Position numbers and translations under genes: made by a program. A model generated the notes under the pieces. The model made no database searches and was not told the origin of the DNA. It worked only from the letters and a program-made list of their open reading frames with translations. A DNA stretch of 64,000 nt from Clostridium sp. (GTDB lineage: Bacteria > Bacillota > Clostridia > Lachnospirales > Lachnospiraceae): contig JAMPEW010000002.1 of the NCBI GenBank assembly GCA_023664775.1, positions 16,027 to 80,026 on the forward strand, in the 5' to 3' direction. This document shows positions 5,064-45,705 of the stretch, piece by piece (positions within the stretch are counted from its first letter, which is position 1; the number at the start of each line of letters is the position of its first letter).

Positions 5064-5642
5064 TCAATTTTTTAATTTTACAGATTTAATTACAATCACT
5101 TCTGCAATCACTGAGAACAAAGCAACCGATAAAGCATAAAATACCTGTTTTATGAATCCTGTCATATCAAAAATAGCAAACAGTAGAAGCATTAAAAATA
5201 TTCCCACCAAAATTTTTCTTCTCTGACGTGCAAAAAACATCACTTCATTGTAATCGCTTTGATAAGCGGTTGTTACAAAAGCAATCTTATGTAACAGAAA
5301 CAGTATCCCGACAGCAAACAGTATCATATACAGCTTAGGAAGCATAATTTCTTTTGCCAGAAAAGGCCCACATGTCACTAATACAACCGAGCAAAAAAAG
5401 CACGTGGAAAATTTTTTCATATGAATTCCGCATATATATGCTCTAAGCGGTAATAGCACGGATAAAACCACAATAAATTCCCAAAAGATATTCAGAATAC
5501 AGGCAATTACCAGCCCTGTACCCAAACAGAGCAGCAATTCAATTCCTGTTTGAAATCCATAATGATACATATTGTAATCTTCTTTGTCTATCACGCCTTT
5601 ATCCACAATGTAATTTGTTATTTTATCTGCCAGTGAATACAT
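5064..5642 (-). CDS. agrB: AgrB-family autoinducer-processing membrane protease
   Basis: Multi-pass membrane protein with LLPLRAYICGIHMKKFSTCFFCS (AgrB-type R..GG/H..C motif). Its start overlaps the agrD stop (TAATG). Confidence 0.8.
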   Translation of the reverse strand: MYSLADKITNYIVDKGVIDKEDYNMYHYGFQTGIELLLCLGTGLVIACILNIFWEFIVVLSVLLPLRAYICGIHMKKFSTCFFCSVVLVTCGPFLAKEIMLPKLYMILFAVGILFLLHKIAFVTTAYQSDYNEVMFFARQRRKILVGIFLMLLLFAIFDMTGFIKQVFYALSVALFSVIAEVIVIKSVKLKN

Positions 5643-7235: not shown

Positions 7236-7944
7236 TCAATTTTGAATATTGTTCATTAATCTCTCTTCTTCTATTTTCACTTATATAATATCTCTGACCG
7301 TTCATTAATACAACATAATCAAATGCCTTATGCCGAATATATTTTACATGAACCAGATATGATTGATGTATCCGCCAAAAATCTACTTTTCTATCTTTCA
7401 ATTTTTCTTCAACCAGACTTAATTTATCATAATATGTACAGACAGTTCCATCGGCAAGATAGATATTAATGCGTCTTTTGTCACTTTCAAACAGCATGAT
7501 ATCACATATCGGCAGTTTGTAATACTCTTTTTTATATTGAAATTCGTAATAACAGGTTTCAGACATAATGTTTTTATATATCTTCAAAAAACATTTCTCG
7601 ATAGTTTTTACGGATATGGGTTTCAAAATAAAATGATACGGGTGTACCTCATAGGCTTCCAATGCATAACTTTCAAAACCAGTTACATATATCAAATAAA
7701 CCTGTTCATCCATTTCACGAATCTGCTTTGCCGTATCCAGACCGTCTAAATGTTTCATCTCTATATCCAGAAAAATCAGGTCATATCGGACGTTATTTTC
7801 TTCCATTTGCTTTAACAATGCTTCACCGCTCATGAAGTCTTCCACATCAACACGAATACCTTGTTGAAGGGATATAGTTTCTAAAATCCTCTCTAATCTT
7901 TCGATTTCTTCTATTTCATCATCACATATTGCAACATTAAGCAT
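7210..7944 (-). CDS. agrA: LytTR-family response regulator (AgrA-like)
   Basis: Receiver domain (VAICDDE...DLIFLDIEM) plus a LytTR-like C-terminal half. Overlaps the kinase gene. Confidence 0.8.
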   Translation of the reverse strand: MLNVAICDDEIEEIERLERILETISLQQGIRVDVEDFMSGEALLKQMEENNVRYDLIFLDIEMKHLDGLDTAKQIREMDEQVYLIYVTGFESYALEAYEVHPYHFILKPISVKTIEKCFLKIYKNIMSETCYYEFQYKKEYYKLPICDIMLFESDKRRINIYLADGTVCTYYDKLSLVEEKLKDRKVDFWRIHQSYLVHVKYIRHKAFDYVVLMNGQRYYISENRRREINEQYSKLIEEQFVGR

Positions 7945-25043: not shown

Positions 25044-25535
25044 TTAGCCTTCTTTAATTTTATCTTTCAAATACTGTGCAAAATATGGATAATATTTTGC
25101 TTGTAAACTTGGTATTTTCCAGTCTCGTCCTGTAATAATATGCCTACAACAAGTGCTTCCACAATGACATTCAAAGGAATAATCCTCATTATCTATAAAT
25201 GCATAATCTATAGTAAGCTCTTCTCCAACTTTAATATCCTTTATTGCAATAAATGTAATCTCGCCATGCACTCCACAATTTGGTTCACAAGAGTGATTAT
25301 TATATAATTTCACATCAGTCTCTTCATCATGAGAAATTGCTCCTACAAAATAATCATCTGAAATAGGTAAATAACTATTAATAGTTGAAGACGAGAATAA
25401 TTCTTTTCGAGTTAAAATATGCCCGCCTTTAATATATACTATTTCTCCTTTTCTGATATATTCTTTAGCAAACATCCCCATTTTATTAATATCACTTTTA
25501 CAGACTTCGACTTTACTGCTTATAATAGATTTCAT
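25044..25535 (-). CDS. SET-domain methyltransferase
   Basis: YNNHSCEPNC, GEELTIDY, and a post-SET-like CHCGSTCCR. Confidence 0.8.
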   Translation of the reverse strand: MKSIISSKVEVCKSDINKMGMFAKEYIRKGEIVYIKGGHILTRKELFSSSTINSYLPISDDYFVGAISHDEETDVKLYNNHSCEPNCGVHGEITFIAIKDIKVGEELTIDYAFIDNEDYSFECHCGSTCCRHIITGRDWKIPSLQAKYYPYFAQYLKDKIKEG

Positions 25536-26599
25536 ATACTTTCCTCCAATAATGGAATTTCATGTAACAAGCAATGGATGCCACCACCCCCTAACAAAGG
25601 TTCTCGACTATAAATTTGAATGATGTCTCTGTCCCTAAAAATACTTTCGAACAAGTGCTTAACAGTTTCATCCGTTTCGCAATTAAATGCTGGAATTAGT
25701 ACAGCACCATTAATCATATAAAAATTCAAATACGATGCTGGTAAAATATCTCCAGCATTTCTTGATAACGCATCTGGATTAAATATTAATCCTTTTACCT
25801 CTACTTCATCCATATATTGGGTGGGTGGTAATGGAATAAAGTGAATACTGTACTTTTCATTATTTAAATTAGTAATATTTGATATGACATTATATGCTTT
25901 CCTTACACGATAATAATTGGGGTTTGTTCTATCCTCAGTCCATGCCAAACAAATTTCTTTATGATTTGCAAAAGATAATATATTATCTATATGCCCATTT
26001 GTTTCATCAGAAAATAGTCCCTGTTCTATCCAAACCATTCTTTGATCATGAGTTGCATTTAAAATAGTTTCTTCAACATACTCTCTTTTTTTAAAAGGAT
26101 TACGATTTCTATTAAGTAAAACACTTTTTGTTGCAAAAATCGTTCCCAATCCATCAGAAATGATTCCACCACCCTCAAGAACAAGATTTACTCTATTACA
26201 TGGTATATGAAAATAATCTGAAACTATAGATGCAAAGCCATCATCTGCATTCCAAGGATAATATGCCCCTTCTTTCCTTCCACCCCACGCATTAAATTTC
26301 CAATCTATAGTTTCTATATTACCGTCACAACGTATGAATGAAGGTCCAATATCCCTTGCCCAAATATCATCATATTCTGAAAAAACAACATTAACACCAT
26401 TAGGAAAAATCCCTGTTTGACTTGCAAAATTCTTAGGGCAAAACAGAAATACTGGTTCATATCTTGATATTATTGAAACCAAATCAAGAATATAACGTTG
26501 CATATGAACAGCATTATCTCTCCATATATCACTTCTAAAGGGAAACATTGCTATTGTACCATAATGCTTTTCAAATTCTCCAATTAATCCATTACTCAT
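25532..26599 (-). CDS. Agmatine deiminase / PAD_porph-family guanidino-group modifying enzyme
   Basis: FPFRSDIWRDN, DIWARDIGP, and a C-terminal GGGGIHCLLHEIP (catalytic Cys motif). 4-nt overlap with the SET gene. Confidence 0.75.
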   Translation of the reverse strand: MSNGLIGEFEKHYGTIAMFPFRSDIWRDNAVHMQRYILDLVSIISRYEPVFLFCPKNFASQTGIFPNGVNVVFSEYDDIWARDIGPSFIRCDGNIETIDWKFNAWGGRKEGAYYPWNADDGFASIVSDYFHIPCNRVNLVLEGGGIISDGLGTIFATKSVLLNRNRNPFKKREYVEETILNATHDQRMVWIEQGLFSDETNGHIDNILSFANHKEICLAWTEDRTNPNYYRVRKAYNVISNITNLNNEKYSIHFIPLPPTQYMDEVEVKGLIFNPDALSRNAGDILPASYLNFYMINGAVLIPAFNCETDETVKHLFESIFRDRDIIQIYSREPLLGGGGIHCLLHEIPLLEESI

Positions 26600-26619: not shown

Positions 26620-27462
26620 TCATCTATTTAATTTCTTCATTTGAAGTTCGATTGCCTCTTCTGGATGATACCCTTCAAATACTCTTCCAGATTCAACATA
26701 CATATCAAAAGCAACTCCATTATACCCCCCATGAACCGGTACTATGCCGCCAGATATAAAACTTGCCTTATCAGAGATCAAAAAACTTACAACATTTGCA
26801 ATTTCAAATGTTTCAGCAAATCTTCCAAGCGGACACAACTGAGAGCCTGTACTCCTAGAGATAAATGGAACCATTTCTGATGAAATTGAATCAGTTTCAT
26901 CATAAGATTTAACCCAGCCTGGACATACTGCCGTTACACGTATCTTTTTATCATCATACCCCAAATTAATCGCCAAGCTATCAGTTAGATTTATAAGTGC
27001 CGCCTTGCTTGCAGCATACGCCATACTTGAAAACGAACCTTTCAAACCATCTGTGCTAACGATATTGATAATAACTGCTTTTGTATTCATCTGAGATTTT
27101 AATCCAGTACTAAGCATTAGTGGTGCTGTAACATTTACAGCAAAAACACGATCCCATGTTTCGAAATCATAATTATCAATATCTTCATCCCCACTAAACG
27201 CACCAGCATTATTAACTAAAGCATCTAACCTTATTTCTGAATCTTTAAAAAAACTGATTAGGGATTTTAGTGAACTACGATTCGAAATATCACATTGGAT
27301 AAACGAAATATTATTAGGATGTTTTTCATAATATTCTTTTGCCGTTGAATCTTTGCTATGATATAAAGCATAAACATAGAATCCGTCAGTAATCAACTGT
27401 CTCGCAATGGCAAAACCAATCCCTGTAGTCCATGAAACACCAGTAACTAATGCCTTTTTCAT
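26620..27462 (-). CDS. Short-chain dehydrogenase/reductase (SDR)
   Basis: KKALVTGVSWTTGIGFAIA (Rossmann motif), NNAG, YAASKAAL (YxxxK). Confidence 0.8.
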   Translation of the reverse strand: MKKALVTGVSWTTGIGFAIARQLITDGFYVYALYHSKDSTAKEYYEKHPNNISFIQCDISNRSSLKSLISFFKDSEIRLDALVNNAGAFSGDEDIDNYDFETWDRVFAVNVTAPLMLSTGLKSQMNTKAVIINIVSTDGLKGSFSSMAYAASKAALINLTDSLAINLGYDDKKIRVTAVCPGWVKSYDETDSISSEMVPFISRSTGSQLCPLGRFAETFEIANVVSFLISDKASFISGGIVPVHGGYNGVAFDMYVESGRVFEGYHPEEAIELQMKKLNR

Positions 27463-27480: not shown

Positions 27481-27873
27481 TTAATTAATTATATAATTTA
27501 ATACCAACAAAATTATTCCAAAAATAAACACCACTATCTGTACTATATAAATTAAAGTCCATTTAACATACGCATTTTTCGTTGCCTCTAAAACAATTTC
27601 TCTTTTTTTACCATAGTCAATTACATGTTTTTCAATAATATAATTTTGAAACTTGCTCAACTTTGCTGCAAAATACATACATAAAGCACCTGTCAACAAA
27701 AATATTAATGTTGAGAGATATAAATGCCAATGAGCATATATATCAGCCTTTTCAAAGCATAGACTTGTAAAAATATTCACTGATAATGCAACAAAAATAC
27801 CACTTATAAATGTATACACATTATTATTAACTAGCATTAATGGTACACATACTTTTAAATACAAAATTTTCAT
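27481..27873 (-). CDS. Small integral membrane protein (3-4 TM helices), unknown function
   Basis: Hydrophobic helices throughout. 4-nt overlap with the upstream PAS gene. Confidence 0.55.
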   Translation of the reverse strand: MKILYLKVCVPLMLVNNNVYTFISGIFVALSVNIFTSLCFEKADIYAHWHLYLSTLIFLLTGALCMYFAAKLSKFQNYIIEKHVIDYGKKREIVLEATKNAYVKWTLIYIVQIVVFIFGIILLVLNYIIN

Positions 27874-29069
27874 AATTCTCCACTAAGTTGATGCTGAATC
27901 TCCAAAAATTGTTGTTCCAGAGTTTTAAATTTTTCCTCCATCTGTATTCTAATAAACTGTAACTCTGTTTCACTATTTAAAACTGAAGCATCTGATAATG
28001 TCTTATCCGTATATATATCAGCATCTTTTTTATATTCCAATATACGTTGCTTCATGTCAACAAATGATTTATACATACTAGATTCAGAATTAGGCATTGG
28101 ATTAACTTGATCTCTATAATCAGAAATTTCTTTCTCAATTTTTAACATAATGCTGTGTGCTAACTCTGACAGAGAACGACTACGTGATGCAATATCGCGA
28201 AGTATTGCGTCTCTCTCTGAAATAAAAGTATCATCCATATCATATTCATGTGATACCTCTTCAACATCTAATACGATATCTTCAAACGAATCCAAAATCT
28301 CATTATATTGCTTAAAAAAAGACTGCCTAGTTTCTTCACATTTATCATACGATGCACATGTTTGAATTTTAGAATAATATTCATCAACAGTCGAGTTCAA
28401 CTTATCTGTAATATCAGACAATGCAGTTTTTATTACTGAAATATTTCTTTTAAATTCAGTCCTCCGTCTAAGTGTAATAGCTTTTTTTTCACAGTTACGT
28501 ATTGCGGTATTAAGCGACATTTTTCTATCTAAAAAATGCTCTTTTAATTGGGAAGCATTATCTATAAATTGTTTTACACAAGAACTAATACGCTGACTTT
28601 CTGTTACAATAAGTTTTAACCTTTCTTTTTCCTGCTCTAGATAATCAATAATTAGACCCATTTCTGCATTCCAATATTCCCCAGTGACAGGATCCTTAAT
28701 TCTTCTACAGTTCGTTACCAACTGCAACGTATTACCATTTTTACCTTTGTCATTAGCAATATTATGAAAAAGAGCTGCATTATCAATTATATCAATCTGA
28801 TCACGTCGAGCGGCTACTTTTTCATCAGGAGCTACAAATAAATCAACAAAATCTTTACCTAATACCTCTTCACTACTAAAACCATATAAAGATTCGCATT
28901 GACCAGACCAAAATTTAATAATACAATTTCTATCACTTGCCCATACTGTAAACGGAGAAGCATCAAGGATAATAAGTTTCATCTGATCTTCGTATGTAAA
29001 TGCTCTCTTGATTTTCATTTCTTCAATATACGCTATCAATTCTTCTTTTGTCATATCTTTATAATTCAC
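27870..29069 (-). CDS. PAS-domain protein with a long helical/coiled-coil C-terminal region, no recognisable output domain
   Basis: ILDASPFTVWASDRNCIIKFWSGQCESLYGFSSEEVLGKDFVDLF is PAS-like. The rest is heptad-rich helical sequence. Confidence 0.6.
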   Translation of the reverse strand: MNYKDMTKEELIAYIEEMKIKRAFTYEDQMKLIILDASPFTVWASDRNCIIKFWSGQCESLYGFSSEEVLGKDFVDLFVAPDEKVAARRDQIDIIDNAALFHNIANDKGKNGNTLQLVTNCRRIKDPVTGEYWNAEMGLIIDYLEQEKERLKLIVTESQRISSCVKQFIDNASQLKEHFLDRKMSLNTAIRNCEKKAITLRRRTEFKRNISVIKTALSDITDKLNSTVDEYYSKIQTCASYDKCEETRQSFFKQYNEILDSFEDIVLDVEEVSHEYDMDDTFISERDAILRDIASRSRSLSELAHSIMLKIEKEISDYRDQVNPMPNSESSMYKSFVDMKQRILEYKKDADIYTDKTLSDASVLNSETELQFIRIQMEEKFKTLEQQFLEIQHQLSGEL

Positions 29070-29117: not shown

Positions 29118-30269
29118 TTAAGGATGCAAATATGGATATGTTTTACACTCACCAAGTTCCCTATAAAGTCGACGAACCGCCCTACATTTTACTAAATTCT
29201 GACCACTAAGTTTTCCTGTTTCGTTTACTGTTTCACCCAAACAATAACCACCACAATGGAGTTTCGCTGGGCATGACTTACAATGATTCATTTCTGTCGA
29301 ACGACGCTTATTTAACGCCTTAATCCTTTCGCTATATAATTCAAACGATTTCGTATTAGCATTCCACTTTCCTACAATAAATGGCTTCATATGATATGGA
29401 TCTGCTCCTGACACAACCATATCACATGCAGATATGTAGCCATCTGGTGTTAAGTGAGGTGCATTTTGCGGAGTGCAACAACGACAATGATATGAAGATT
29501 CACCATCAAAATTAATAGTGAGAAAGCTTCCCCAAAATACTCCTTTACTTTGAGCATAATAATAAGCTTTAAGATAATTATCAACATATAAATCCATATC
29601 AAAATGATATGCATCTTTTTTTTCCTTATCCTCACATATAGGAATTTTCCCCACTGCATAAAACAAGGGATTAGTCCAAACATAACATATTCCAAGACTA
29701 TAAAAATAATCTACCATATCAATTTGCTTATCAATGTTTTTATCTGTTATAGTTACTCTTGCACCAACCATTAATTTACGGTTTTGCTTATTTTCATTTA
29801 GCCAACGGACATTATCTTCCAATATTTCTGCAGATGTTTTGCCGTTAAAATCTTGATTAAAAAAAGGATTAAGAGGGCGATTATATTCCTGAATTTCTTT
29901 CATTCCATCAAAGGACAGCCAAATAATATTAAAATTGTCTAATGCCCAATTACGTACATCTTCTGTAAATACACCATTTGTCTGAATTTCTACAGTAACT
30001 CTATCTCCTCCATTTGGATGTAATTTAGCATAAGAAGTAATTTGCTTAAGAATTTCAAATTCTTGAGTTGGCTCGCCCGGTCCATAAAATCTAATATGGC
30101 GACTATCATTATTAGAAAAATACCAGTCTATTCCAGCTTTTGCAATTTCCAAAGAAAGTGTTTTTTCTTCCATTGCATTACGTTCTTTCGCATTATAACA
30201 ATAACGACAACATAAATTGCAACGTGTTGTCAAAAAAAATGATATCATTCTTTTATTACAATGTGGCAT
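29118..30269 (-). CDS. Radical SAM enzyme with a SPASM-type C-terminal Cys cluster
   Basis: TTRCNLCCRYCYN (Cx3Cx2C), GPGEPT, and a C-terminal CKSCPAKLHCGGYCLGE. Confidence 0.8.
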   Translation of the reverse strand: MPHCNKRMISFFLTTRCNLCCRYCYNAKERNAMEEKTLSLEIAKAGIDWYFSNNDSRHIRFYGPGEPTQEFEILKQITSYAKLHPNGGDRVTVEIQTNGVFTEDVRNWALDNFNIIWLSFDGMKEIQEYNRPLNPFFNQDFNGKTSAEILEDNVRWLNENKQNRKLMVGARVTITDKNIDKQIDMVDYFYSLGICYVWTNPLFYAVGKIPICEDKEKKDAYHFDMDLYVDNYLKAYYYAQSKGVFWGSFLTINFDGESSYHCRCCTPQNAPHLTPDGYISACDMVVSGADPYHMKPFIVGKWNANTKSFELYSERIKALNKRRSTEMNHCKSCPAKLHCGGYCLGETVNETGKLSGQNLVKCRAVRRLYRELGECKTYPYLHP

Positions 30270-30325
30270 TTCCAGACCTCCATTATTAAATTTTTAAATA
30301 TAAGCATTTGATACTATTTAACAAA

Positions 30326-30667
30326 TCAGCATTTGCTTTCATTTCTCAATGTGTACCGTAAACTCTTTATCACCGACAAAATAACCTTCATCTCATAATC
30401 CGAACAATCACTCAGTTCTTTCATAAGCACATTCTTCATTTCCGAACTATCAGATACCTCCGGATAAAATACCTGATAAAGCGGCAAATCCAACTCTCTC
30501 ACTAACATACACAGCAATTCAAACTTCGGATTTCCAGTATTCTTTTCAATATCCATAATTGTCCTTTTACAGACACCAAGTTTCTCGGCTAATGCCTCCT
30601 GAGATAAATTTTTACTTTTTCTTGTTGCACGGACAATACTGCCTAATGCACTTACTGACTGGTTCAT
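30326..30667 (-). CDS. XRE-family HTH regulator heading the seven-gene operon
   Basis: IVRATRKSKNLSQEALAEKLGVCKRTIMDIEKNTGNP. Confidence 0.75.
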   Translation of the reverse strand: MNQSVSALGSIVRATRKSKNLSQEALAEKLGVCKRTIMDIEKNTGNPKFELLCMLVRELDLPLYQVFYPEVSDSSEMKNVLMKELSDCSDYEMKVILSVIKSLRYTLRNESKC

Positions 30668-31158: not shown

Positions 31159-31223
31159 ATCAACAAGGGAATTAAAAACTCCCCACTGCTATAATTCTAA
31201 AATTACTGGTGAGGAATGTATAT

Positions 31224-31994
31224 TTATATTTCATTTTTTTCTTTGATTATGTTTCGAATCCACTCATATTGCTTTTCATATATATTATATGGATGAACTA
31301 TCTTTTTCAATCTTTCTTGATGTGAATCACTTCCTATAGATGCATAAAGACAATTTCGAGATATTATATCTTCAATAAGTGCGACATCTTCTTTAGAATG
31401 TTTAGGAGTAATTAGCTCCACTGTATCAATTCCTAAAGAAAGAATAAATTGTTCAACACTTTGAGCACTAAAGCCAGCAAGCGATTCCATTGGATGTGCC
31501 AATACCGGTATTCCTTGTGCGTTAACTATGGCACTTATTATCGTAGATGCAGGAACAGAGTGGCATTGTTCTTTATACTCAATATTATTCTTTCTCCAAA
31601 AATCTTTTGAATCTATATATTCTGGTAATGGAACATTAATCCGAAATGGATTTTTAGGCAAATTCTGTATATTAAATCCATTTTGCTTTAATATTTTATT
31701 AATAATTGAAACCCGCAATTTTTTGACCTTATTAACAATTTTAATCATCTCTTTGTTTTGAGCATTAAAGTTATATCCCAATATTTCAATATATTGTCCA
31801 TTATGATTACAACAGATTTCTACTCCTGACAAATATTTTGTCGAACCACTTCCATGATATTTTGACGGATCAAAAATATTCTCATGATCTGTAAATGCAA
31901 TTAAATTATAATTGGAATATAAATCAGGAATAGAATCTTCTATGTCTATCTTTCCATCTGAACACTTGGTATGAATATGTAAATCAATACACAC
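31224..31994 (-). CDS. PHP-family metal-dependent phosphoesterase (TrpH/YciV-like)
   Basis: CIDLHIHTKCSDG, AFTDHE, LAHP, GSDSH. Confidence 0.75.
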   Translation of the reverse strand: MCIDLHIHTKCSDGKIDIEDSIPDLYSNYNLIAFTDHENIFDPSKYHGSGSTKYLSGVEICCNHNGQYIEILGYNFNAQNKEMIKIVNKVKKLRVSIINKILKQNGFNIQNLPKNPFRINVPLPEYIDSKDFWRKNNIEYKEQCHSVPASTIISAIVNAQGIPVLAHPMESLAGFSAQSVEQFILSLGIDTVELITPKHSKEDVALIEDIISRNCLYASIGSDSHQERLKKIVHPYNIYEKQYEWIRNIIKEKNEI

Positions 31995-32012
31995 TTTTTT
32001 TAACCATCCTTC

Positions 32013-33083
32013 CTATAACAATAACGGTTCTTTTACCGTTTCTTTATTTATATAATCTGCATTTATTTGTGAAAGGTATTGACTAAAACGATAATGTCTG
32101 CACGCCTTTAATGGGCATCTTCCCTCACACATCTCTTTAGAATATATGTCTATAAACTCCTTTTCATCACTGATTTTATTATTTCTATTTGCGTTTGCTG
32201 CAATACACGGAAAAATTTCTCCCTCTGCATTTATAAGTCTATATAAGCCTGTATTTGCAAAAAAACATTTTTGGGGATGAGGAAATGTACTATAGATAAA
32301 ATCATCCAAATTATCAATTAAAAAATCATATTGTTTTGCAATATTATGGTTATATGCCTGATAACGTATTTCTTTGATAACAGAATCTTCTGCCAAATCT
32401 TCATTAAACAAAAAGTTTTGTTGATACTTTATCACTATACTATCAGCCCCTTTGTTCATTGCATAATCTAAATAATAGGGAAGGAGTGAATAGTTCCCTT
32501 TATTTATTAAAATTTTCAAAGCAACCTCTTGGCATGATTTTTTTTGACTTAAAAGGAAAGATATATTTTTATCAATACGATCAAAAGAATTAACTCCTGT
32601 TATAGCTTTACTTGTGACTTCATTAAACCCTGTAACATGTATTTGATAAAAGTCAAATTCTCTCCAAAAATCTTTGATTCCCTCAAAATTAAACATATTT
32701 GTTGCAATGCCAAAACTACATTTTTTATCTATCTTCGCAAAAAAATCTTTCCAGTATTCCTAGACCAGTGGATCTCCACCACCTGAAAAGAAAACACTTC
32801 TTAAATCATATTGTCCGTATCGTTCCAATACTGAAGACACTTGTTCTACAGTAAGTGATTTTCCATTATGTCTTGTACTATAGGAACATCCATTACAATT
32901 CAAATTGCATCGATTAGTTAAATGGAACTCAATTTCCCAAATTGCATTATCTTTGCCAATACAATCTTTTCTAATTTGAAAAGCCAATCCTATTTTATCT
33001 AACAGGAAACTATCCACACTCTTTCTGTTAGTAAAAACAATTGCCTGATGTGGAATATATTTCTCATTCCGTTTAATGTTCAT
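32013..33083 (-). pseudogene. Radical SAM gene interrupted by one in-frame TAG (32760-32762)
   Basis: FHLTNRCNLNCNGCSY (Cx3Cx2C), FFSGGGDPLV, TAG, then in frame EYWKDFFAKIDKKCSFGIATNMFNFEG... The two track ORFs (32760..33083 and 32013..32696) share one frame. Confidence 0.7.
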
Positions 33084-33178
33084 TCATTTCAACCTCAAAA
33101 AATGCAAGTAACAAGCATATAGATTACCATATATTCGTTAATTGCAAAACTCTTTTGCAATTTAGTCATTCCATATAT

Positions 33179-33817
33179 TTACAAACTAATTTTATAATTT
33201 AGTACTATCTTATCATTTTCATAATCAATGCCTATTGGTTCCGCAACCAAGTTAGCATTTTTATATTTCTCACCCAGTTGGGTAAAAATAAAATCTCTCG
33301 GAGAATAAAAATGCGGTAATGGCAACTGTATTAATTCAGTATCGTTCTCCTTCACATTCACTTCAACATAATAATCTCGTTCGACATAATTAGGTATAAT
33401 TTTAAAAAAAGATTTAGCAGGTATTGAATAACTCTTATGTGGTATTTTACCTGAAATAGTATCTTTATATCCTTGTGGCATAAAAACTGTTTCAACTTCA
33501 TTTTTATCAACCCAATGAAGCGTTCCTCCATCCTCATCAATCAATATATCCGGAATACTTAACGCTTTGCATATAAACGGTACTATAATTATATTTTTCA
33601 ATCCTATTTCATAAAGCCATGGTTCTTTGAATCCTAATACCTCAACTTTTATACCCGATTCTTCTTTAAATTCTGTAATTAAGCGAAACTCTGCAGAAGC
33701 ATCTCCTTTTTCTAAACGCCCACCTAATAATTCATACTCACATCTTTCATTTTTTCTAAGAAGTAACTTTCCATCAATCTCTATCACACCCTTAATAGAA
33801 ACACCAAAACGATCCAT
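33179..33817 (-). CDS. Nudix hydrolase with a C-terminal extension of about 90 aa
   Basis: Nudix box GGRLEKGDASAEFRLITEFKEESGI. Start moved to the ATG at 33817, 9 nt after GGAGG. Confidence 0.75.
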   Translation of the reverse strand: MDRFGVSIKGVIEIDGKLLLRKNERCEYELLGGRLEKGDASAEFRLITEFKEESGIKVEVLGFKEPWLYEIGLKNIIIVPFICKALSIPDILIDEDGGTLHWVDKNEVETVFMPQGYKDTISGKIPHKSYSIPAKSFFKIIPNYVERDYYVEVNVKENDTELIQLPLPHFYSPRDFIFTQLGEKYKNANLVAEPIGIDYENDKIVLNYKISL

Positions 33818-33848
33818 AATAATTTCCTCCATAATTAATTCACATTTT

Positions 33849-34922
33849 TTATAAACCAATATACTCAATCAATAACTGATTCCCAACAAGAAAGCCACAA
33901 ATTAAAAGTATAAACCCAATTACAAAACAAATTAGAACTTTTAGAACTTTTAATTTGACCTTTGAAGAAAAATACAATAACATTCTGAATGTAGTAAAAG
34001 CAATAATAAGTGTACCTCCAAACATAAGAATAATGCCTGCACATCTATTAAAATCATCAATTTCAACTACAATATTTACTGATGTCAAAATAAAAGCTAA
34101 AATAGACGAAAAAAACGCTAAATATTCTAAATACTGCGTTTTAATATTATCCAGATTATTTTCTATTCCTTCAAATGTTGAATTAAACTCAGCAATCTTA
34201 TTATCTACTTGATGATTTTCCATCATCATCTTAATTTGAAGTAAAAAATAATTATATTGACCTATTCTAATCATAGAATCTTTATCTACTACACCCTCCA
34301 TATCCAATGCTTTCTTAACACATGAAATACCTCGGCGATAATCTCCCGTAGACGCAATTAAACGCCCTTGAGTACAATAATATTTTGCATGATTAGGATG
34401 AGCAATGATTACATCATCAAGCCTTTCAATAGCTTTGTTGATTTGAGAAATATTTATATCAACATTTTCTTCAATAGCAAGAGCAATTATCTCAGCATAA
34501 TGATGTTTAACAGCCAAATTAGTTGGCAATACATCACATGCTTCTTCTGCATACCTAACAGCTCGACTATACCCGTCTTCTTCTCCAAGAATTCCTTTAT
34601 TACGAAAATACGTAGACATTACTATTTTATATAAATTATACTGTTTAAATTCATTTGCATAGTTATCCACATATGTATTATATTTTGAATAGTTATTAAA
34701 CTCTCGGCAAATAATGAGTAATGCGTAAAAGGCAGAGAACCGATGATTTGAATTAACATCTTTCAAATAATTTTCCACATCATTCTCTCTGTTCAATAAA
34801 TTATTACTCAGAACGACTTTTTTAAGTCTAATTGTATAATCATCATCGTTTTCATTCGGCAAGTTAGCTAATAAAGATTCAATACTTAGTATCACTGGTG
34901 CATTGTTACCTCGCCTTGCCAT
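33849..34922 (-). CDS. TPR-like helical-repeat protein with C-terminal TM helices
   Basis: The N-terminal 260 aa or so are helical-repeat-like (AEIIALAIEEN, AKYYCTQGRLIASTGDYRRGISCVKKAL). C-terminal hydrophobic helices (LAFFSSILAFILTSVNIVV, AGIILMFGGTLIIAFTTF, LICFVIGFILLICGFLV). Confidence 0.55.
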   Translation of the reverse strand: MARRGNNAPVILSIESLLANLPNENDDDYTIRLKKVVLSNNLLNRENDVENYLKDVNSNHRFSAFYALLIICREFNNYSKYNTYVDNYANEFKQYNLYKIVMSTYFRNKGILGEEDGYSRAVRYAEEACDVLPTNLAVKHHYAEIIALAIEENVDINISQINKAIERLDDVIIAHPNHAKYYCTQGRLIASTGDYRRGISCVKKALDMEGVVDKDSMIRIGQYNYFLLQIKMMMENHQVDNKIAEFNSTFEGIENNLDNIKTQYLEYLAFFSSILAFILTSVNIVVEIDDFNRCAGIILMFGGTLIIAFTTFRMLLYFSSKVKLKVLKVLICFVIGFILLICGFLVGNQLLIEYIGL

Positions 34923-35109
34923 ATTTACATTCCTTTCATGACTGTTGTTACAAACAGCTTAAGTTGCATTTCTGTGAAAATATACAAATATTTCTATTTA
35001 TTTTTACCGTTTTTTCTTAAGATGTCAATAAATTTTGTGTGAAAATCACTTTTCTAAAATAAAGATATCTGCATACATCATATTAATTCATATTTCGATT
35101 ATACTCTAC

Positions 35110-35304: not shown

Positions 35305-35559
35305 TCAGAGCAGAACATATAAAAGACTGCTCTTTCCTCCATTGTCCCGATACCGCTGTTCTGTTTTTATCAGTCCTGCTTTCCGCAAATCCCTGATTGC
35401 CCGCCTGACAGTGGTCTCGGACAGCTTCAGTTCCCTTGCTATGGTTGGAATTGCCGGCCAGCACTTTCCTTCCTTGTCTGTGCGGTCGGCAAGGTAAATA
35501 TAAACCGAAATAGCCCGATGGGGGAGGTCCATCCGATAGATTAAATCATGTCTTCTCAT
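35305..35559 (-). CDS. Winged-helix/HTH DNA-binding protein of the ICE
   Basis: CWPAIPTIARELKLSETTVRRAIRDLRKAGLI. Confidence 0.65.
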   Translation of the reverse strand: MRRHDLIYRMDLPHRAISVYIYLADRTDKEGKCWPAIPTIARELKLSETTVRRAIRDLRKAGLIKTEQRYRDNGGKSSLLYVLL

Positions 35560-43240: not shown

Positions 43241-44464
43241 TTAAATTATTTCTGAATTCACATTATTGCAAAGAATATTTCTACCCATTTCAAAATCCAA
43301 TGTTCTATTACACTGGTAACATGAATAAAAAAATGTTTTTTGTTTGCTATTTATTAGCAGATGCATTTTTTTCCCACAATTTGAACAGGTTACTTGAGCT
43401 ACATCTGATGACCAATAATTACCCTGCAACTGATTTATTCCTAATACCACAACAAACACTTGATTGACACCGACATATTTTAATGTTCTTATACACTCTC
43501 TTATTGTTGCTCCCGTCGTAATAATATCATCAATAATTATAATATTTTTTCCTCTTAAGTAATTTTCACCTTTAAAAGCGTCAGCTATATTATCCTGTCT
43601 TTCTAATGATGATAATACTTTTTGTGTCGGATAATCCTTTACACATTTTAAATAATCCTCTAAATTCTCAATATTACATTTCTTCGCTATAATTTCAAGT
43701 ATTTTTTCAAAACGATTATCCCTTCCGACATGTACTGGAACCGCTAATACACCATCAATTTCGTTCGTTTTTTGTATTCTTTCTACTGCACAAATAAAAA
43801 GACTCGCAAATATATCGTCAAATTTTCTATAATATGATTTCCCTTCTTTTTTATTAAGAAAAATCGCAGTTGAATATGGATGCAACTGGCTCATATAATG
43901 ATAATAACCAAAGTATCTTCCAAGCATATACATAGGTATCTCTTCATCATCTACTTTAAATAGTAGTGGTATAATCATTCCTGTCATTTCTTCATTCGGA
44001 AAAATGACAACTTCTCCCAAAAATCCCTTCACACCCTTTAATACCAACTTCTTAAAGGAATTAAATTCTCGACATATTAAATCTGGTGATTTACTAGCTG
44101 ACTCATATGAGACTTTATCAGTTACCCATATAGTCCCACCCATAAATCCCATTGCATTTTCTAAAAACATACTGTTTTGAGAAACATATGCTATTTCTGT
44201 GGGTTTCAAATTCATAATTTCCAGTACGGTTTTATGTGTCATTGGACTAGGAGCAAACAATTTGATAAATGGTTCAATTTGATAAACATATTTTTTCCCA
44301 TAGGCAATAGCTATTTTTTTAGAATTTTCCTCATTAGAGGTCAAAAATAGACAGTGATATCTATCAAATAATTCTCTCCAATCTTCTATTGAGATATTTC
44401 CAAAACTATCAATATCTATTACCAATCCCCTTAAATCAGTTATGCACCTAAACATACCAGTCAC
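43241..44464 (-). CDS. ComF-like phosphoribosyltransferase-domain protein with a C-terminal zinc ribbon (ShosT-like)
   Basis: PRPP loop KNIIIIDDIITTGATIRE. C-terminal CSNCGKK...CYQCNRT. Start overlaps the upstream stop (GTGA). Confidence 0.7.
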   Translation of the reverse strand: MTGMFRCITDLRGLVIDIDSFGNISIEDWRELFDRYHCLFLTSNEENSKKIAIAYGKKYVYQIEPFIKLFAPSPMTHKTVLEIMNLKPTEIAYVSQNSMFLENAMGFMGGTIWVTDKVSYESASKSPDLICREFNSFKKLVLKGVKGFLGEVVIFPNEEMTGMIIPLLFKVDDEEIPMYMLGRYFGYYHYMSQLHPYSTAIFLNKKEGKSYYRKFDDIFASLFICAVERIQKTNEIDGVLAVPVHVGRDNRFEKILEIIAKKCNIENLEDYLKCVKDYPTQKVLSSLERQDNIADAFKGENYLRGKNIIIIDDIITTGATIRECIRTLKYVGVNQVFVVVLGINQLQGNYWSSDVAQVTCSNCGKKMHLLINSKQKTFFYSCYQCNRTLDFEMGRNILCNNVNSEII

Positions 44465-45705
44465 CCCTTAATTATCGCTGGTTCAAACCATTCTAACATA
44501 TTTTCTTTCTCTGGACTTTTATTTAATTCAGATATATATGCTTCCAATGTTTGCTGCTTGTTTTCCAAATGTCTATCAGGTCTAAATATGTTATTCTCAG
44601 CAAGAATCTTAAGAACCTCTGTAGGATTCTTTACCACTATAGCACCTCTTTTTTCGTATTTAGCTGGCCATGTAATTTTTTCTATTTTTAAGGCACTCTC
44701 AGGAATCAATATCTGCCTTCCCTGTTTTAGTGCAAAATCTGCCTGTTTTAAAGCCCCTGAAGTCTCTCCCGCCTCCATAATAACAGTGGCCAATGAAAGC
44801 CCACTCATTACTCCGTTTCTCATAGGAAAAAACCATCTTTGAGTTTTACTGGCTGGCGAAAACTGTGAAACTATAAGTCCTTTGTTCTCAATCTCAAGCT
44901 GAATTTCTTTATTTTCTGCGGGATAGTATTGATTTAAATTAGTTCCGATTACAGCAATTGTATTATATCCATTTTTTAATGCTGTTTCATGTGCAGTCAC
45001 ATCAATACCTTTTGCCAATCCAGATATAACTGTTATCCCATTTTTTCCTAATTTTTCTGCTAACCGTCTAGTATTATCTTTGGCATTTTCTGAAGCCTGT
45101 CGTGAACCTACAAGTGCTACAGTTCTCCTTTCATATAATAAGGACTTTTTCCCTCTTATATATAAAAATCTAGGAGCTTGCTCTGTCTCCGCTAAAAGTG
45201 GTGGATAATCACTACTTCCTCGCTTTATAATTTCATCATTTTCTCTAAGGCTAGAAAATGCCTTATATGCCTTACTATATTCTTTCAACAGAGTATCTTT
45301 ATCTACCTTAAAATACTCTACATATTTTTCACATATTTCAGTATTGTTCATAGGCCTATCAATATTTACATTTTCACTAAATGTAATAAATTCTGGTTCA
45401 AGTCGAGATTCTGTAATGTTTAGCACATTCATTAAAGTAGCATAATTCAATGCTTCTTGTTTTGCCTTTGTATCAATAACAAACATTCCTTTCGCACCTC
45501 CACTCTCAATTTTAGTAAAAATAGCAAGTTCTTCTTTTCTTCGATTAAGTTCATCAATATGAAAAATAGTTCCAGATGCATTTTTCTTTAATGGCTTTAT
45601 TTTTTCTTCTTGGACCAATTTGTTCAATCTTTGAACAGTAATGCCTAAAAATTCTGCCGCCTCTTTTGCAAAAAACAATTGATTTGCAAGCAAATTATCC
45701 TCCAT
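44461..45705 (-). CDS. HTH-fused DprA/Smf (SLOG) domain protein (ShosA-like)
   Basis: N-terminal excisionase/MerR-like HTH AKEAAEFLGITVQRLNKLV. DprA core VALVGSRQAS, ISGLAKGIDVTAHETAL, VIGTNLNQYYPAENKEI, FPMRNGVMSGLSLATVIMEAGETSGAL. Confidence 0.8.
   Translation of the reverse strand: MEDNLLANQLFFAKEAAEFLGITVQRLNKLVQEEKIKPLKKNASGTIFHIDELNRRKEELAIFTKIESGGAKGMFVIDTKAKQEALNYATLMNVLNITESRLEPEFITFSENVNIDRPMNNTEICEKYVEYFKVDKDTLLKEYSKAYKAFSSLRENDEIIKRGSSDYPPLLAETEQAPRFLYIRGKKSLLYERRTVALVGSRQASENAKDNTRRLAEKLGKNGITVISGLAKGIDVTAHETALKNGYNTIAVIGTNLNQYYPAENKEIQLEIENKGLIVSQFSPASKTQRWFFPMRNGVMSGLSLATVIMEAGETSGALKQADFALKQGRQILIPESALKIEKITWPAKYEKRGAIVVKNPTEVLKILAENNIFRPDRHLENKQQTLEAYISELNKSPEKENMLEWFEPAIIKG

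What the first reader, a model, noticed from the sequence alone, without database searches (positions are those of the whole stretch)
31224..34922. Four-gene operon TPR-TM, Nudix, radical SAM, PHP: candidate nucleotide-centred system
A tight operon has its own AT-rich promoter region at 34923-35100. It starts with a helical-repeat protein ending in 3-4 TM helices, a sensor-plus-membrane-effector-like layout. Three enzymes that typically act on nucleotides or phosphoesters follow: a Nudix hydrolase with an unassigned extension of about 90 aa, a radical SAM enzyme, and a TrpH/YciV-like PHP phosphoesterase. One interpretation is that a modified nucleotide is made and turned over, coupled to a membrane protein. 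The operon lies in the same island as Gabija and abuts a truncated serine recombinase gene, so it arrived by insertion. The radical SAM protein does not show the viperin-type motif context, so this is not an obvious pVip locus.
Basis: partly seen in the sequence, partly recalled or inferred. Interest (0 to 1): 0.75.

Follow-up and report, generated by a model that had tools for sequence, protein, structure and literature searches.

The report
Broken copy of an uncharacterised nucleotide-enzyme operon
This is a real four-gene operon (membrane helical-repeat protein, Nudix hydrolase, radical SAM enzyme, PHP phosphoesterase) that recurs on mobile DNA next to anti-phage genes and matches no described system, but the copy here is dead because its radical SAM gene carries a stop codon.

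Summary
The minus strand of 31224-34922 holds four co-oriented genes: a TPR-like protein with three C-terminal TM helices, a MutT-type Nudix with an unassigned ~85-aa C-terminal domain, a twitch/SPASM-like radical SAM (rSAM) enzyme and a TrpH/YciV-type PHP phosphoesterase.

The same set in the same order recurs in at least 7 other lineages (rSAM identity 36-63%). A second architecture replaces PHP with a PP2C phosphatase. The two distant TPR-3TM relatives sampled again sit beside a PP2C and a Nudix, with other enzymes in place of the rSAM.

The system is rare and patchy: 12 of 185,579 species genomes, including an archaeon, and none in IMG/VR. It usually lies on mobile elements or within about 10 kb of known defence genes. 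Here it shares an ICE cargo islet with Tmn and Gabija.

It is not a viperin, MoaA, Ophion or HXS orthologue. In this window, TAG replaces a near-invariant Trp codon (W108) in the rSAM gene, so the locus is a pseudogenised copy.

Best reading (inferred, about 0.4): an undescribed anti-phage or conflict module in which the rSAM alters a nucleotide, the Nudix and phosphatase strip phosphates, and the membrane protein senses or executes.

The parts
35000..35028 (-). Best sigma-70-like promoter candidate (TTGACA-17-AAAAAT), 78 nt upstream of the first gene, in the AT-rich leader
   Evidence: 10 of 12 matches. This is a consensus match only; site counts in the region are not above the shuffles.
33849..34922 (-). 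Gene 1: cytoplasmic TPR-like helical-repeat domain (about residues 1-230), coiled-coil linker, then three C-terminal TM helices (357 aa)
   Evidence: There are 36 close homologues. A profile search finds 310 representatives at E<1e-30, nearly all about 350 aa and matching full length.
33879..34124 (-). Region encoding the three TM helices (about residues 267-348). F270, F271, G303 and F309 are invariant; R313 is nearly invariant.
   Evidence: Kyte-Doolittle scan and alignments A5/A6. The basic TM2-TM3 loop and acidic TM1-TM2 loop imply that the N-terminal domain is cytoplasmic (inference).
33179..33817 (-). Gene 2: MutT-type Nudix domain (residues 1-125) plus an unassigned alpha/beta C-terminal domain (residues 128-212); 212 aa
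   Evidence: The Nudix box is G33-x5-D39-x8-T48-E49-F50-x-E52-E53-S54-G55, and the three catalytic Glu positions are invariant. AF2 pLDDT is 91.9. Foldseek matches MutT, NudG, RppH and Ndx1 with TM 0.7-0.82 on the target. The C-terminal domain has no Pfam hit.
32013..33083 (-). Gene 3: radical SAM enzyme (356 codons), pseudogenised. It has CX3CX2C (C59/C63/C66), a GGGDP SAM motif, four invariant C-terminal Cys (C273, C293, C323, C328 = twitch/SPASM-like auxiliary cluster) and a conserved 45-aa N-terminal extension.
32760..32762 (-). In-frame TAG replacing the near-invariant Trp108 codon (TGG) of the GGGDPLxW motif
   Evidence: translation; W108 is conserved in at least 90% of 43 aligned sequences, and all 42 homologues are uninterrupted at 345-378 aa.
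31224..31994 (-). Gene 4: TrpH/YciV/Cv1693-type PHP phosphoesterase (256 aa) with all metal ligands conserved (H6, H8, D13, H37, E59, H167, H199, D223, H225)
31166..31184 (-). Terminator-like hairpin followed by a T-rich tail, directly after the PHP stop codon
30877..31158 (-). 93-aa ORF of backbone-like GC (42%). It is possibly the C-terminal remnant of a large serine recombinase and marks a seam between two cargo operons.
   Evidence: DUF4368, E=0.034, below threshold; GC. Not confirmed.

Best explanation
SHOWN. The locus is one copy of a conserved, horizontally mobile four-gene module with the order TPR-like 3TM protein, Nudix with a C-terminal domain, twitch-type radical SAM enzyme, TrpH-type PHP phosphoesterase. 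The module is rare, phylogenetically patchy, absent from the phage collections searched, and usually found in mobile-element cargo or beside known defence genes. A sister architecture uses a PP2C phosphatase instead of PHP. In the two remote relatives sampled, the membrane protein again sits with a PP2C and a Nudix, and other enzymes take the place of the rSAM. In this window the rSAM gene carries a nonsense mutation at a near-invariant Trp, so the module is inactive here.

INFERRED. It is an undescribed anti-phage or conflict system built on viperin/Ophion-like logic.
- The rSAM enzyme uses SAM-derived radical chemistry to alter a nucleoside phosphate.
- The MutT-type Nudix cleaves the pyrophosphate (NTP-like to NMP-like). 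The phosphomonoesterase (PHP or, interchangeably, PP2C) removes a remaining phosphate. Together these either mature the product to a nucleoside or clear it to protect the host.
- The cytoplasmic TPR domain, anchored by three TM helices, couples the enzymes to the membrane as an infection sensor, a scaffold, or a membrane-damaging effector.
For: Conserved gene set and order:
- Type A (window order) occurs in L001, L011/L040, L015-17, L019 and L036-39. L018 and L035 also match but are cut by the contig end.
- Type B, with PP2C, occurs in L013, L031 and L032-34.

Catalytic residues are intact family-wide: the rSAM Cys triad plus four auxiliary Cys, the Nudix Glu triad and the PHP metal ligands.

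Enzyme classes:
- Nudix fold: MutT/NudG/RppH/Ndx1.
- PHP: TrpH/YciV/Cv1693 nucleotide-phosphoesterase group, not the CpsB type.
- rSAM: PDB neighbours include DesII, BlsE, MoaA and viperin, which act on nucleotides or nucleotide-sugars.

The PHP/PP2C swap points to a shared phosphomonoesterase role.

Wider modular family:
- 310 TPR-3TM representatives at E<1e-30.
- L045: UDPG-dehydrogenase-like + EPSP-synthase-like + PP2C + TPR-3TM + Nudix.
- L047: TPR-3TM + SDR + PP2C + Nudix.
- The PP2Cs are mutually homologous.

Defence and mobile-element context:
- Window: Tmn, Gabija, a DprA+PRTase pair and an AAA_15 ATPase on one ICE.
- Cas9/Cas1/Cas2 within 3 kb in L015; an integrase/relaxase element in L016.
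- A TIR effector (6e-32) in L039; IetA-like (3e-43) in L031; a GajA/AriA/Ppl-like ATPase in L045.
- Lit-like Peptidase_U49 in L013.

Distribution: 12 of 185,579 species genomes, spanning Bacillota, Synergistota, Fusobacteriota and Methanobrevibacter. None in IMG/VR.

Precedent: Ophion (rSAM+PHP+PRTase) is an experimentally validated defence system.

Two decayed copies, the window and L041, fit a costly accessory system.
Against: - There is no functional data. No component matches a validated defence family above threshold in PADLOC. The hits are only weak ones to pVip, PDC-S07 and CorA.
- The rSAM fold is as close to the peptide maturases SkfB, SuiB, CteB and anSME as to nucleotide enzymes, with all TM scores at 0.5-0.6. 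Its best curated hit is a cofactor/protein 'maturase'.
- Sub-modules occur alone: rSAM+PHP in a housekeeping context (L008), and solo Nudix-CTD genes beside unrelated metabolic genes.
- PP2C enzymes are classically protein phosphatases. The PHP/PP2C swap could therefore equally indicate a phosphoprotein substrate.
- Some loci lie inside polysaccharide-synthesis regions (L001, L013; L026 has an adjacent GT2).
- The generalisation to the 310-member TPR-3TM family rests on only two sampled remote loci.
- The Nudix proteins of those two remote loci are not orthologous to the Nudix-CTD.
Confidence: 0.4

Rival explanations
1. Protein-maturation model (HXS-like). The twitch/SPASM rSAM post-translationally modifies a protein of the operon, either the TPR-3TM protein or the flexible conserved 'IPHKSYS' loop of the Nudix-CTD. 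The phosphatase (PP2C or PHP) acts on a phosphoprotein. The matured membrane protein is the effector.
For: The closest folds include SkfB, SuiB, CteB and anSME. The best NCBIfam hit is a 'radical SAM maturase' at 1e-16. PP2C is a protein-phosphatase family. HXS shows that an rSAM-matured protein effector can be an anti-phage system. The Nudix-CTD has an invariant, low-confidence loop at residues 125-150.
Against: There is no RiPP-recognition (RRE) domain; the N-terminal extension is only about 45 aa. No conserved small precursor ORF exists: the Nudix-rSAM gap is 2-95 nt, and the 24-aa ORF in the window is not conserved. There are no HxS repeats. The PHP is of the nucleotide-acting TrpH/Cv1693 type rather than the CpsB/YwqE type. 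No kinase is in the operon. Solo Nudix-CTD genes exist without the rSAM.
Confidence: 0.17
2. Surface-glycan or nucleotide-sugar tailoring cassette. The rSAM (DesII/BlsE-like) remodels an NDP-sugar, the Nudix and phosphatase release or recycle the nucleotide, and the membrane protein links the pathway to envelope assembly. Any phage resistance would be indirect, through receptor change.
For: DesII is the top structural match at 1e-10. L001 and L013 lie within polysaccharide loci containing PS_pyruv_trans, Polysacc_synt and GT2 genes. L026 has a GT2 gene directly downstream. The remote type C locus carries UDPG-dehydrogenase-like and EPSP-synthase/MurA-like enzymes.
Against: Most loci, including the window, L011, L015-17, L031, L032 and L036-39, have no glycosyltransferase or flippase nearby. 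The Nudix is a minimal MutT type, not the GDP-mannose-hydrolase type. In L013 the module sits with a Lit-like protease and small unknown genes as an apparent insertion into the glycan locus. Three TM helices with a cytoplasmic TPR domain match no known glycan-assembly component.
Confidence: 0.15
3. Small biosynthetic cluster for a secreted nucleoside-type antimicrobial. The rSAM modifies an NTP or NMP, the Nudix and phosphatase dephosphorylate it to the nucleoside (by analogy with oxetanocin OxsB/OxsA and polyoxin PolH/PolJ, from my own knowledge), and the membrane protein gives export or immunity.
For: The enzyme logic of rSAM plus pyrophosphatase plus phosphatase fits. The EPSP-synthase-like enzyme of the type C locus recalls the NikO/PolA step of nucleoside antibiotic pathways (the analogy is from my own knowledge). 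The rSAM is weakly similar to agnC7 of the agrocin 84 plasmid, at 24% identity.
Against: There is no transporter or dedicated resistance gene. The context is defence islands, not biosynthetic clusters. The similarity to agnC7 is only at the generic rSAM level.
Confidence: 0.1
4. Housekeeping cofactor, tRNA-modification or nucleotide-sanitation pathway that merely happens to lie in the island.
For: There are generic sub-threshold similarities to MoaA, the tungsten-cofactor maturase, MutT and the pAp phosphatase. The rSAM+PHP pair of L008 sits among housekeeping genes.
Against: All scores are far below the equivalog cut-offs: MoaA 34 against 231 bits, W-maturase 61 against 380, MutT 18 against 98, pAp phosphatase 60 against 400. 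The system is present in only 12 of 185,579 species genomes. It is patchy across phyla and carried on mobile elements. It is dispensable, since it is pseudogenised here and in L041.
Confidence: 0.03

Closest known systems
Ophion (OpnA rSAM + OpnB PHP + OpnC PRTase), anti-jumbo-phage system of Pseudomonas (bioRxiv 10.1101/2025.09.30.679545)
   Same: Both combine a radical SAM enzyme, a PHP phosphoesterase and a third nucleotide-metabolism enzyme in one small operon found in defence contexts. A nucleotide-interference mechanism is proposed for Ophion.
   Different: It is not orthologous. hhalign aligns only 68 columns of the rSAM core to OpnA and gives 18.9% probability for OpnB. OpnA lacks the C-terminal Cys cluster, and OpnB is not of the TrpH type. 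The window has no PRTase in the operon; it has a Nudix-CTD and a TPR-3TM protein that Ophion lacks. The hosts are anaerobic Bacillota, Synergistota, Fusobacteriota and an archaeon rather than Gammaproteobacteria.
Prokaryotic viperins (pVip)
   Same: An rSAM enzyme in defence islands. A nucleotide substrate is plausible. Viperin structures are among the Foldseek hits (E about 1e-7).
   Different: The viperin HMMs are far below threshold: NF038283 scores 20 bits against 180, and PADLOC pVip scores 28 bits over a partial match. The window family has a 45-aa N-terminal extension and a four-Cys auxiliary-cluster domain that viperins lack. pVips are single genes, with or without a kinase, not four-gene operons.
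HXS system (HxsB/HxsC rSAM maturases + HxsA effector; PMC13128918)
   Same: A SPASM/twitch-class rSAM inside an anti-phage operon whose end effector acts at the cell envelope.
   Different: The HxsC model scores 25 bits against a cut-off of 268. There is no HxS-repeat substrate and no second rSAM. Nudix and PHP enzymes are absent from HXS.
TrpH/YciV (RNase AM) and Cv1693 3',5'-nucleoside bisphosphate phosphatase family of PHP enzymes
   Same: Full-length profile matches to 9etk, 7ug9 and 2yb1, and the complete set of metal ligands.
   Different: NCBIfam equivalog scores are 57-60 bits against cut-offs of 375-400. This is a divergent operon-specific clade that can be replaced by PP2C.
MutT/NudG/RppH-type minimal Nudix pyrophosphohydrolases
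   Same: The fold and the catalytic Glu triad. The Nudix domain is 30-35% identical to annotated NUDIX hydrolases.
   Different: The Nudix box has a one-residue insertion, and T/K/I replaces the box Arg. There is an extra conserved ~85-aa C-terminal domain with no Pfam or structural match. The Pfam NUDIX score (18.4) is below the gathering threshold (21.1).

Membership tests
Radical SAM superfamily | CX3CX2C cluster motif plus a GGE-type SAM-binding motif and a partial TIM-barrel fold | tested here: met
   C59/C63/C66 are invariant. 'FFSGGGDP' is conserved (S100, G101-G103 and P105 invariant; D104 nearly invariant). Pfam PF04055 scores 31.6 bits, above the gathering threshold, on the N-terminal fragment. 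The AF2 model has pLDDT 91.7 with rSAM neighbours in Foldseek.
SPASM/twitch rSAM subgroup | C-terminal CX9-15GX4C and further Cys residues ligating an auxiliary [4Fe-4S] cluster | tested here: met
   C273-x14-G288-x4-C293 plus C323/C328 are conserved family-wide. Pfam SPASM hits are recorded for four family members. The number of clusters, one or two, is not testable here.
Prokaryotic viperin (pVip) | Match to viperin family models above threshold | tested here: not met
   NF038283 scores 20.3 bits against a cut-off of 180. PADLOC pVip scores 28 bits and covers only 5-154 of 262 profile positions.
Prokaryotic viperin (pVip) | Produces 3'-deoxy-3',4'-didehydro-NTP | not testable with these tools
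   Requires an enzyme assay with LC-MS.
   MoaA models score 28-34 bits against cut-offs of 231-325. No QueE model appears among the 25 (of 39) NCBIfam matches shown. MoaA structures have TM about 0.53 only.
Ophion | OpnA-type rSAM orthologue | tested here: not met
   hhalign of A2 against OpnA aligns 68 columns of the generic core, probability 85%.
Ophion | OpnB-type PHP orthologue | tested here: not met
   hhalign of A4 against OpnB gives probability 18.9% and covers only the N-terminal HxH motif.
Ophion | OpnC PRTase encoded in the operon | tested here: not met
   No PRTase lies in 31224-34922 or in any of the related loci. The PRTase at 43241-44464 belongs to a separate DprA-PRTase pair.
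HXS | HxsB/HxsC equivalogs and an HxS-repeat substrate protein | tested here: not met
   HxsC scores 25.4 bits against 268. No HxS repeats occur in the four proteins.
Nudix hydrolase | Nudix box GX5EX7REUXEEXGU and the alpha/beta/alpha Nudix fold | tested here: met
   The fold is met: Foldseek probability 1.0 and TM 0.7-0.82 on the target. The box is near-canonical, with E49, E52, E53 and G55 invariant, a one-residue insertion, E changed to D39, and R changed to T48. The Pfam score is just below the gathering threshold.
TrpH/YciV/Cv1693-type PHP phosphoesterase | PHP metal ligands (HxH, D, H, E, H, H, DxH) and a full-length match to family structures | tested here: met
   All ligands are invariant in A4. 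Profile hits: 9etk 7e-19, 7ug9 6e-12, 2yb1 2e-11. The equivalog cut-offs for RNase AM and the pAp phosphatase are not met, so this is subgroup membership, not orthology.
CpsB/YwqE PHP protein-tyrosine phosphatases | Sequence match to CpsB_CapC or to solved CpsB/YwqE structures | tested here: not met
   No such hit in Pfam at E<=0.1 or in the PDB profile search at E<=1.
TPR repeat proteins | Pfam TPR repeats above threshold | tested here: inconclusive
   The window protein gives only sub-threshold hits: TPR_14 and TPR_2 at E about 0.05, and MamA at 1.5e-4. Relatives P0158 and P0200 carry TPR_1/TPR_2 hits. No structure was predicted.
Known defence systems in PADLOC v2 | Any component matching a defence HMM convincingly | tested here: not met
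   Only weak hits: CorA-like 4.7e-3 (TM region), PDC-S07 1.2e-6 (Nudix domain), pVip 3.6e-7; none for PHP.

The most novel reading that the evidence does not exclude
The window operon is one member of a large, undescribed, combinatorial family of conflict systems, with at least 310 TPR-3TM clusters at 50% identity. The family is built on a constant triad: a cytoplasmic TPR domain on three TM helices, a metal-dependent phosphatase (PP2C or PHP), and a Nudix hydrolase. Interchangeable 'warhead' enzymes plug into this triad: a twitch rSAM, an enolpyruvyl-transferase plus a UDPG-dehydrogenase-like enzyme, or an SDR. Each would make a different altered nucleotide or nucleotide-sugar, either to poison invaders or as a signal that gates the membrane protein, with the Nudix and phosphatase as the built-in off-switch.
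Probability: 0.22. Interest if true: 0.85.

Novelty: new variant of a known kind. Interest (0 to 1): 0.62.

Why it matters
Radical SAM chemistry in immunity is currently known from three systems:
- Viperins, which make chain-terminating nucleotides.
- Ophion, whose mechanism is unknown.
- HXS, which matures a protein effector.

A fourth, non-orthologous rSAM module would widen the chemistry that bacteria, and at least one archaeon, use in conflicts. This module is paired with phosphate-stripping enzymes and a membrane-anchored helical-repeat protein.

The PHP/PP2C swap, and the reuse of the TPR-3TM, phosphatase and Nudix triad with other enzymes, give concrete, testable hypotheses about which parts are 'core' and which are 'warhead'.

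The family is concentrated in gut, rumen and oral anaerobes on conjugative elements, where few defence systems have been tested. For this particular genome the practical message is the opposite: the copy is a pseudogene and should not be counted as an active system.

Tried and rejected
- Exact-protein look-up of the window's TPR-3TM protein: not on record.
- Viperin, MoaA, QueE, PqqE and HxsC assignments were rejected on curated cut-offs.
- Ophion orthology was rejected by profile comparison against the published OpnA and OpnB sequences.
- A CpsB/YwqE-type protein phosphatase was rejected.
- RiPP cluster: no RRE domain and no conserved precursor ORF. The nearest plasmid rSAM (C. difficile pTW11, 27% identity) is in a true RiPP cluster but is only generically related.
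- Phage origin: no relatives of the Nudix-CTD or the rSAM in IMG/VR. There were no PHROG hits except generic rSAM ones. BFVD gave only generic Nudix folds, so the C-terminal domain remains unmatched.
- Plasmid collection: no TPR-3TM relatives, and only generic Nudix, PHP and rSAM hits.
- Riboswitch or other RNA in the leader or operon: nothing above chance in Rfam.
- Serine-recombinase remnant: could not be strengthened beyond the weak DUF4368 hit.
- ICE backbone: no megablast match in plasmids.
- Literature searches for rSAM+Nudix+PHP, PP2C+Nudix+TPR and similar combinations found no description of this gene set.

Full report
**1. What is in the sequence**

The minus strand of 31224-34922 carries four co-oriented genes.

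- Gene 1 (34922..33849, 357 aa) has an alpha-helical N-terminal two-thirds with only sub-threshold TPR signals: TPR_14/TPR_2 at E about 0.05 and MamA at 1.5e-4. A coiled-coil linker and three hydrophobic segments (about 267-287, 294-316, 326-348) follow. The charge distribution of the loops puts the N-terminal domain in the cytoplasm (inference).
- Gene 2 is best started at the ATG at 33817, which has a GGAGG 8 nt upstream, not at the TTG at 33868. This gives the 212-aa protein seen in 52 homologues.
- Gene 3 (33083..32013) is a single reading frame of 356 codons broken by TAG at 32762-32760.
- Gene 4 (31994..31224, GTG start) is a 256-aa PHP protein.

The strongest sigma-70-like site of the region (TTGACA-17-AAAAAT, 35028..35000) lies in the AT-rich leader, and a hairpin plus T-run (31184..31166) follows gene 4. 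Promoter-like sites as a class are not enriched over the shuffles.

The operon is 29.7% GC against 47% for the flanking backbone. No Rfam element is present.

**2. The individual proteins**

*rSAM.* The Pfam Radical_SAM hit is above threshold on the N-terminal fragment. A search of 5.8 billion proteins found only 44 relatives, all uninterrupted at 345-378 aa apart from the window's own fragment and one 423-aa hit at E=5.5e-4.

- The alignment shows an invariant C59/C63/C66 triad and a conserved 'FFSGGGDP' motif. It also shows four invariant C-terminal Cys arranged as CX14GX4C...CX4C, a twitch/SPASM-like auxiliary-cluster signature.
- Several basic residues are invariant: R71, K190, K219, R329 and H330.
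- The window's TAG falls on Trp108, which is conserved in at least 90% of the aligned sequences ('GGGDPLxW'). TGG to TAG is one transition. The N-terminal fragment would carry the cluster motif and the C-terminal fragment the rest of the barrel, so the enzyme is almost certainly inactive.
- An AlphaFold2 model of the 82%-identical intact homologue P0001 is confident (pLDDT 91.7). Its PDB neighbours are DesII (1e-10), SkfB, SuiB, CteB, BlsE, MoaA, viperin and anSME, all at TM 0.5-0.6. This places it in the twitch/SPASM neighbourhood without pointing to a substrate class.
- All curated NCBIfam models are far below their cut-offs: W-cofactor maturase 61 against 380, MoaA 34 against 231, viperin 20 against 180, HxsC 25 against 268.

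*Nudix-CTD.* This is a compact family of 82 sequences down to 46% identity.

- The AF2 model (pLDDT 91.9) has an N-terminal 125-residue domain that superposes on MutT, NudG/ORF135, MutT2, BdRppH and Ndx1, with TM up to 0.82 on the target.
- The Nudix box is near-canonical, and all three catalytic Glu residues are invariant.
- Residues 128-212 form a separate alpha/beta domain with no Pfam, PDB or BFVD match.

*PHP.* All nine metal ligands are invariant in six orthologues. A profile search of the PDB hits 9etk (7e-19), 7ug9 '5'-3' exoribonuclease' (6e-12), Cv1693/2yb1 (2e-11) and 3e0f, and no CpsB/YwqE protein phosphatase. It therefore belongs to the nucleotide/oligonucleotide-acting PHP subgroup but is not an equivalog of RNase AM or the pAp phosphatase.

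**3. Gene-neighbourhood conservation**

Contigs encoding diverged rSAM homologues, plus genome and metagenome scans, gave about 16 non-redundant loci.

| Architecture | Loci |
|---|---|
| Type A, the window's four genes in the same order | window, L001, L011/L040, L015-17, L019 (Ca. Mediterraneibacter), L036-39/41; L018 (Blautia difficilis) and L035 are cut by contig ends |
| Type B, TPR-3TM + PP2C_2 phosphatase + Nudix-CTD + rSAM | L013, L031, L032-34 |
| TPR-3TM + short Nudix + rSAM | L042 |
| rSAM + PHP only, among housekeeping genes | L008 |
| Nudix-CTD + rSAM + GT2 (Methanobrevibacter) | L026 |
| Divergent Nudix-CTD, then rSAM + 312 aa + second rSAM (Propionispora) | L003 |
| rSAM + NHL-repeat protein + ordinary Nudix + NTP_transf_5 | L005 |

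Solo Nudix-CTD genes occur in Synergistota and Fusobacteriota beside unrelated genes.

The four genes clearly co-occur. The core is rSAM plus Nudix-CTD plus TPR-3TM, with an interchangeable phosphatase.

**4. A larger family**

An exhaustive profile search with the TPR-3TM alignment found 310 representatives (50%-identity clusters) at E<1e-30 and 1,135 at E<1e-10. Almost all are about 350 aa and match full length. That is far more than the 44 rSAM relatives.

Two remote members were inspected.

- L045 encodes a UDPG-dehydrogenase-like protein, an EPSP-synthase-like protein, a PP2C, the TPR-3TM protein and a 280-aa Nudix. It lies next to a GajA/AriA/Ppl-like ATPase.
- L047 encodes a TPR-3TM protein (476 aa), an SDR, a PP2C/SpoIIE-like protein, a 284-aa Nudix, a 651-aa unknown protein and a HAD hydrolase.

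The PP2Cs of types B, C and D are mutually homologous at 27-31% identity. The Nudix proteins of C and D are homologous to each other (2e-25) but not to the Nudix-CTD.

So a triad of TPR-3TM, phosphatase and Nudix recurs with different accompanying enzymes. With only two remote samples this is a lead, not a census.

**5. Context and distribution**

The window is a Bacillota-type ICE. It has a CD1115-family VirD4 coupling protein, a primase-like protein and a giant TQ-ester adhesin, and it carries several low-GC cargo islets.

- Tmn and Gabija.
- A seven-gene operon containing a second rSAM/SPASM enzyme.
- The operon studied here.
- A DprA+PRTase pair and an AAA_15/AAA_21 ATPase.

Elsewhere the module lies near defence or mobility genes.

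- Beside ParAB and 3 kb from Cas9/Cas1/Cas2 (L015), or beside an integrase/relaxase element (L016).
- Near a TIR effector (6e-32) and another rSAM (L039), an IetA-like ATPase (3e-43, L031), and HD and AAA_15 proteins (L001).
- Near a Lit-like Peptidase_U49 (L013).

Only 12 of 185,579 species-representative genomes carry the Nudix-CTD. They span Bacillota, Synergistota, Fusobacteriota and Methanobrevibacter. None of 2.9 million viral contigs encodes the Nudix-CTD or the rSAM. No plasmid record carries the TPR-3TM protein.

A second decayed copy exists. L041 differs from L038 by 5 mismatches in 3.8 kb plus 7-bp and 16-bp insertions that break the TPR-3TM and rSAM genes.

Rarity, patchiness, mobile-element carriage, defence neighbours and repeated inactivation are the usual signature of a costly accessory conflict system.

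**6. How it probably works**

The enzyme classes, the intact active sites, the operon structure and the context are shown. What follows is inferred.

The most economical chemistry is this:
- The rSAM modifies a nucleoside phosphate. The conserved basic residues and a MoaA/DesII/BlsE/viperin-like barrel are compatible with this.
- The MutT-type Nudix cleaves the pyrophosphate.
- A phosphomonoesterase removes a remaining phosphate. That PHP of the Cv1693/TrpH type and PP2C substitute for each other argues that the shared activity is phosphomonoester hydrolysis.

Nudix followed by a phosphatase is an established route from a triphosphate to a nucleoside, for example NudB plus a phosphatase on dihydroneopterin triphosphate (from my own knowledge).

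The available evidence does not say whether this pair matures the rSAM product or clears it, either as self-protection or as signal turnover.

The TPR-3TM protein could be an infection sensor, a membrane scaffold or a pore-type effector. The weak CorA-like PADLOC hit on its TM region (4.7e-3) is only a hint.

My estimates are about 0.55 that the module is a defence or conflict system of some kind, and about 0.4 for the specific nucleotide-modification reading.

**7. Rivals**

- Protein maturation, as in HXS. For: the peptide-maturase fold neighbours and PP2C. Against: no RRE domain, no precursor, no kinase, and a nucleotide-type PHP.
- Nucleotide-sugar or surface-glycan tailoring. For: the DesII top hit, polysaccharide-locus neighbours in L001, L013 and L026, and the UDPG-dehydrogenase-like and MurA-like partners in L045. 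Against: most loci lack glycan genes, and the Nudix is of the MutT type.
- A secreted nucleoside antimicrobial. The enzyme logic fits, but there is no transporter or immunity gene.
- A housekeeping cofactor or tRNA pathway. Effectively excluded by the curated cut-offs, rarity and dispensability.

**8. Comparison with known systems**

The closest known analogue is Ophion (rSAM OpnA + PHP OpnB + PRTase OpnC), validated against jumbo phages in Pseudomonas. I retrieved the OpnA and OpnB sequences from the preprint's Table S1. Profile comparison shows only superfamily-level similarity, and there is no PRTase in the operon. The module therefore works perhaps like Ophion but is not a member of it.

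It is also not a pVip, MoaA, QueE or Hxs enzyme. Literature searches found no description of the four-gene set or of the TPR-3TM, PP2C and Nudix triad.

**9. Verdict**

The module is best classed as a new variant of the rSAM-based conflict systems, with possible membership in a much larger unrecognised modular family. No function has been demonstrated.

The copy in this window is a pseudogene. That lowers its local biological importance but not the interest of the family.

Noticed in passing
window 25044-30667 (- strand): A second tight low-GC operon lies immediately downstream of the recombinase remnant. It encodes an HTH_3 regulator (30667..30326), a PapB-like rSAM/SPASM maturase (30269..29118, NF047865 6e-28 but below cut-off), a PAS plus coiled-coil protein (29069..27870), a 130-aa unknown (27873..27481), an SDR (27462..26620), a PAD_porph/agmatine-deiminase-like enzyme (26599..25532) and a SET-domain protein (25535..25044). 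This is an unusual combination with no PADLOC assignment.
   Followed up: partly
window 41585-45705 (- strand): Another low-GC cargo islet holds a DprA-domain protein with an HTH (45705..44461), a 407-aa PRTase-domain protein (44464..43241) and two unknown proteins (353 and 192 aa). It resembles the DprA-PRTase defence pair (identification from my own knowledge; only Pfam was run).
   Followed up: partly
window 61093-62808 (- strand) and 16928-20674: Further defence-type cargo on the same ICE: an AAA_15/AAA_21 (OLD/AbiEii-like) ATPase, and a 1248-aa Tmn/YobI-type NTPase (PADLOC Tmn 1.8e-74). Together with Gabija, this makes the element a multi-islet defence carrier.
   Followed up: partly
window 35123-35162 (- strand): Two tandem copies of AGGACAATGNNNTTAGTGA, unique in the window (0 of 100 shuffles give 2 matches). 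They sit exactly at the GC jump between the ICE backbone (wHTH gene 35559..35305) and the operon's promoter region. They could be an operator or an insertion seam.
   Followed up: partly
L041 4388 and 6408 (relative to L038): A near-identical copy of a type A operon (5 mismatches in 3.8 kb) carries a 7-bp insertion in the TPR-3TM gene and a 16-bp insertion in the rSAM gene. This is a second independently decayed copy, or an assembly artefact.
   Followed up: partly
window 33142-33160 (- strand): A perfect 8-bp inverted repeat, TTGCAAAA-GAG-TTTTGCAA, lies in the 95-nt Nudix-rSAM spacer, together with a non-conserved 24-aa ORF (33169..33095). Other loci have spacers of only 2-33 nt, so this is probably local.
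   Followed up: no
window 5064-7944 (- strand): An Agr-like quorum-sensing set lies in another low-GC stretch of the element: AgrB (5642..5064), a GHKL histidine kinase (7235..5952) and a LytTR response regulator (7944..7210).
   Followed up: no
P0239 (Acetoanaerobium sticklandii, WP_013360612.1, 700 aa): A TPR-3TM relative of twice the usual length, in which the profile matches residues 348-698. It may be a tandem duplication or a fusion with an unassigned N-terminal half (no Pfam hit).
   Followed up: no
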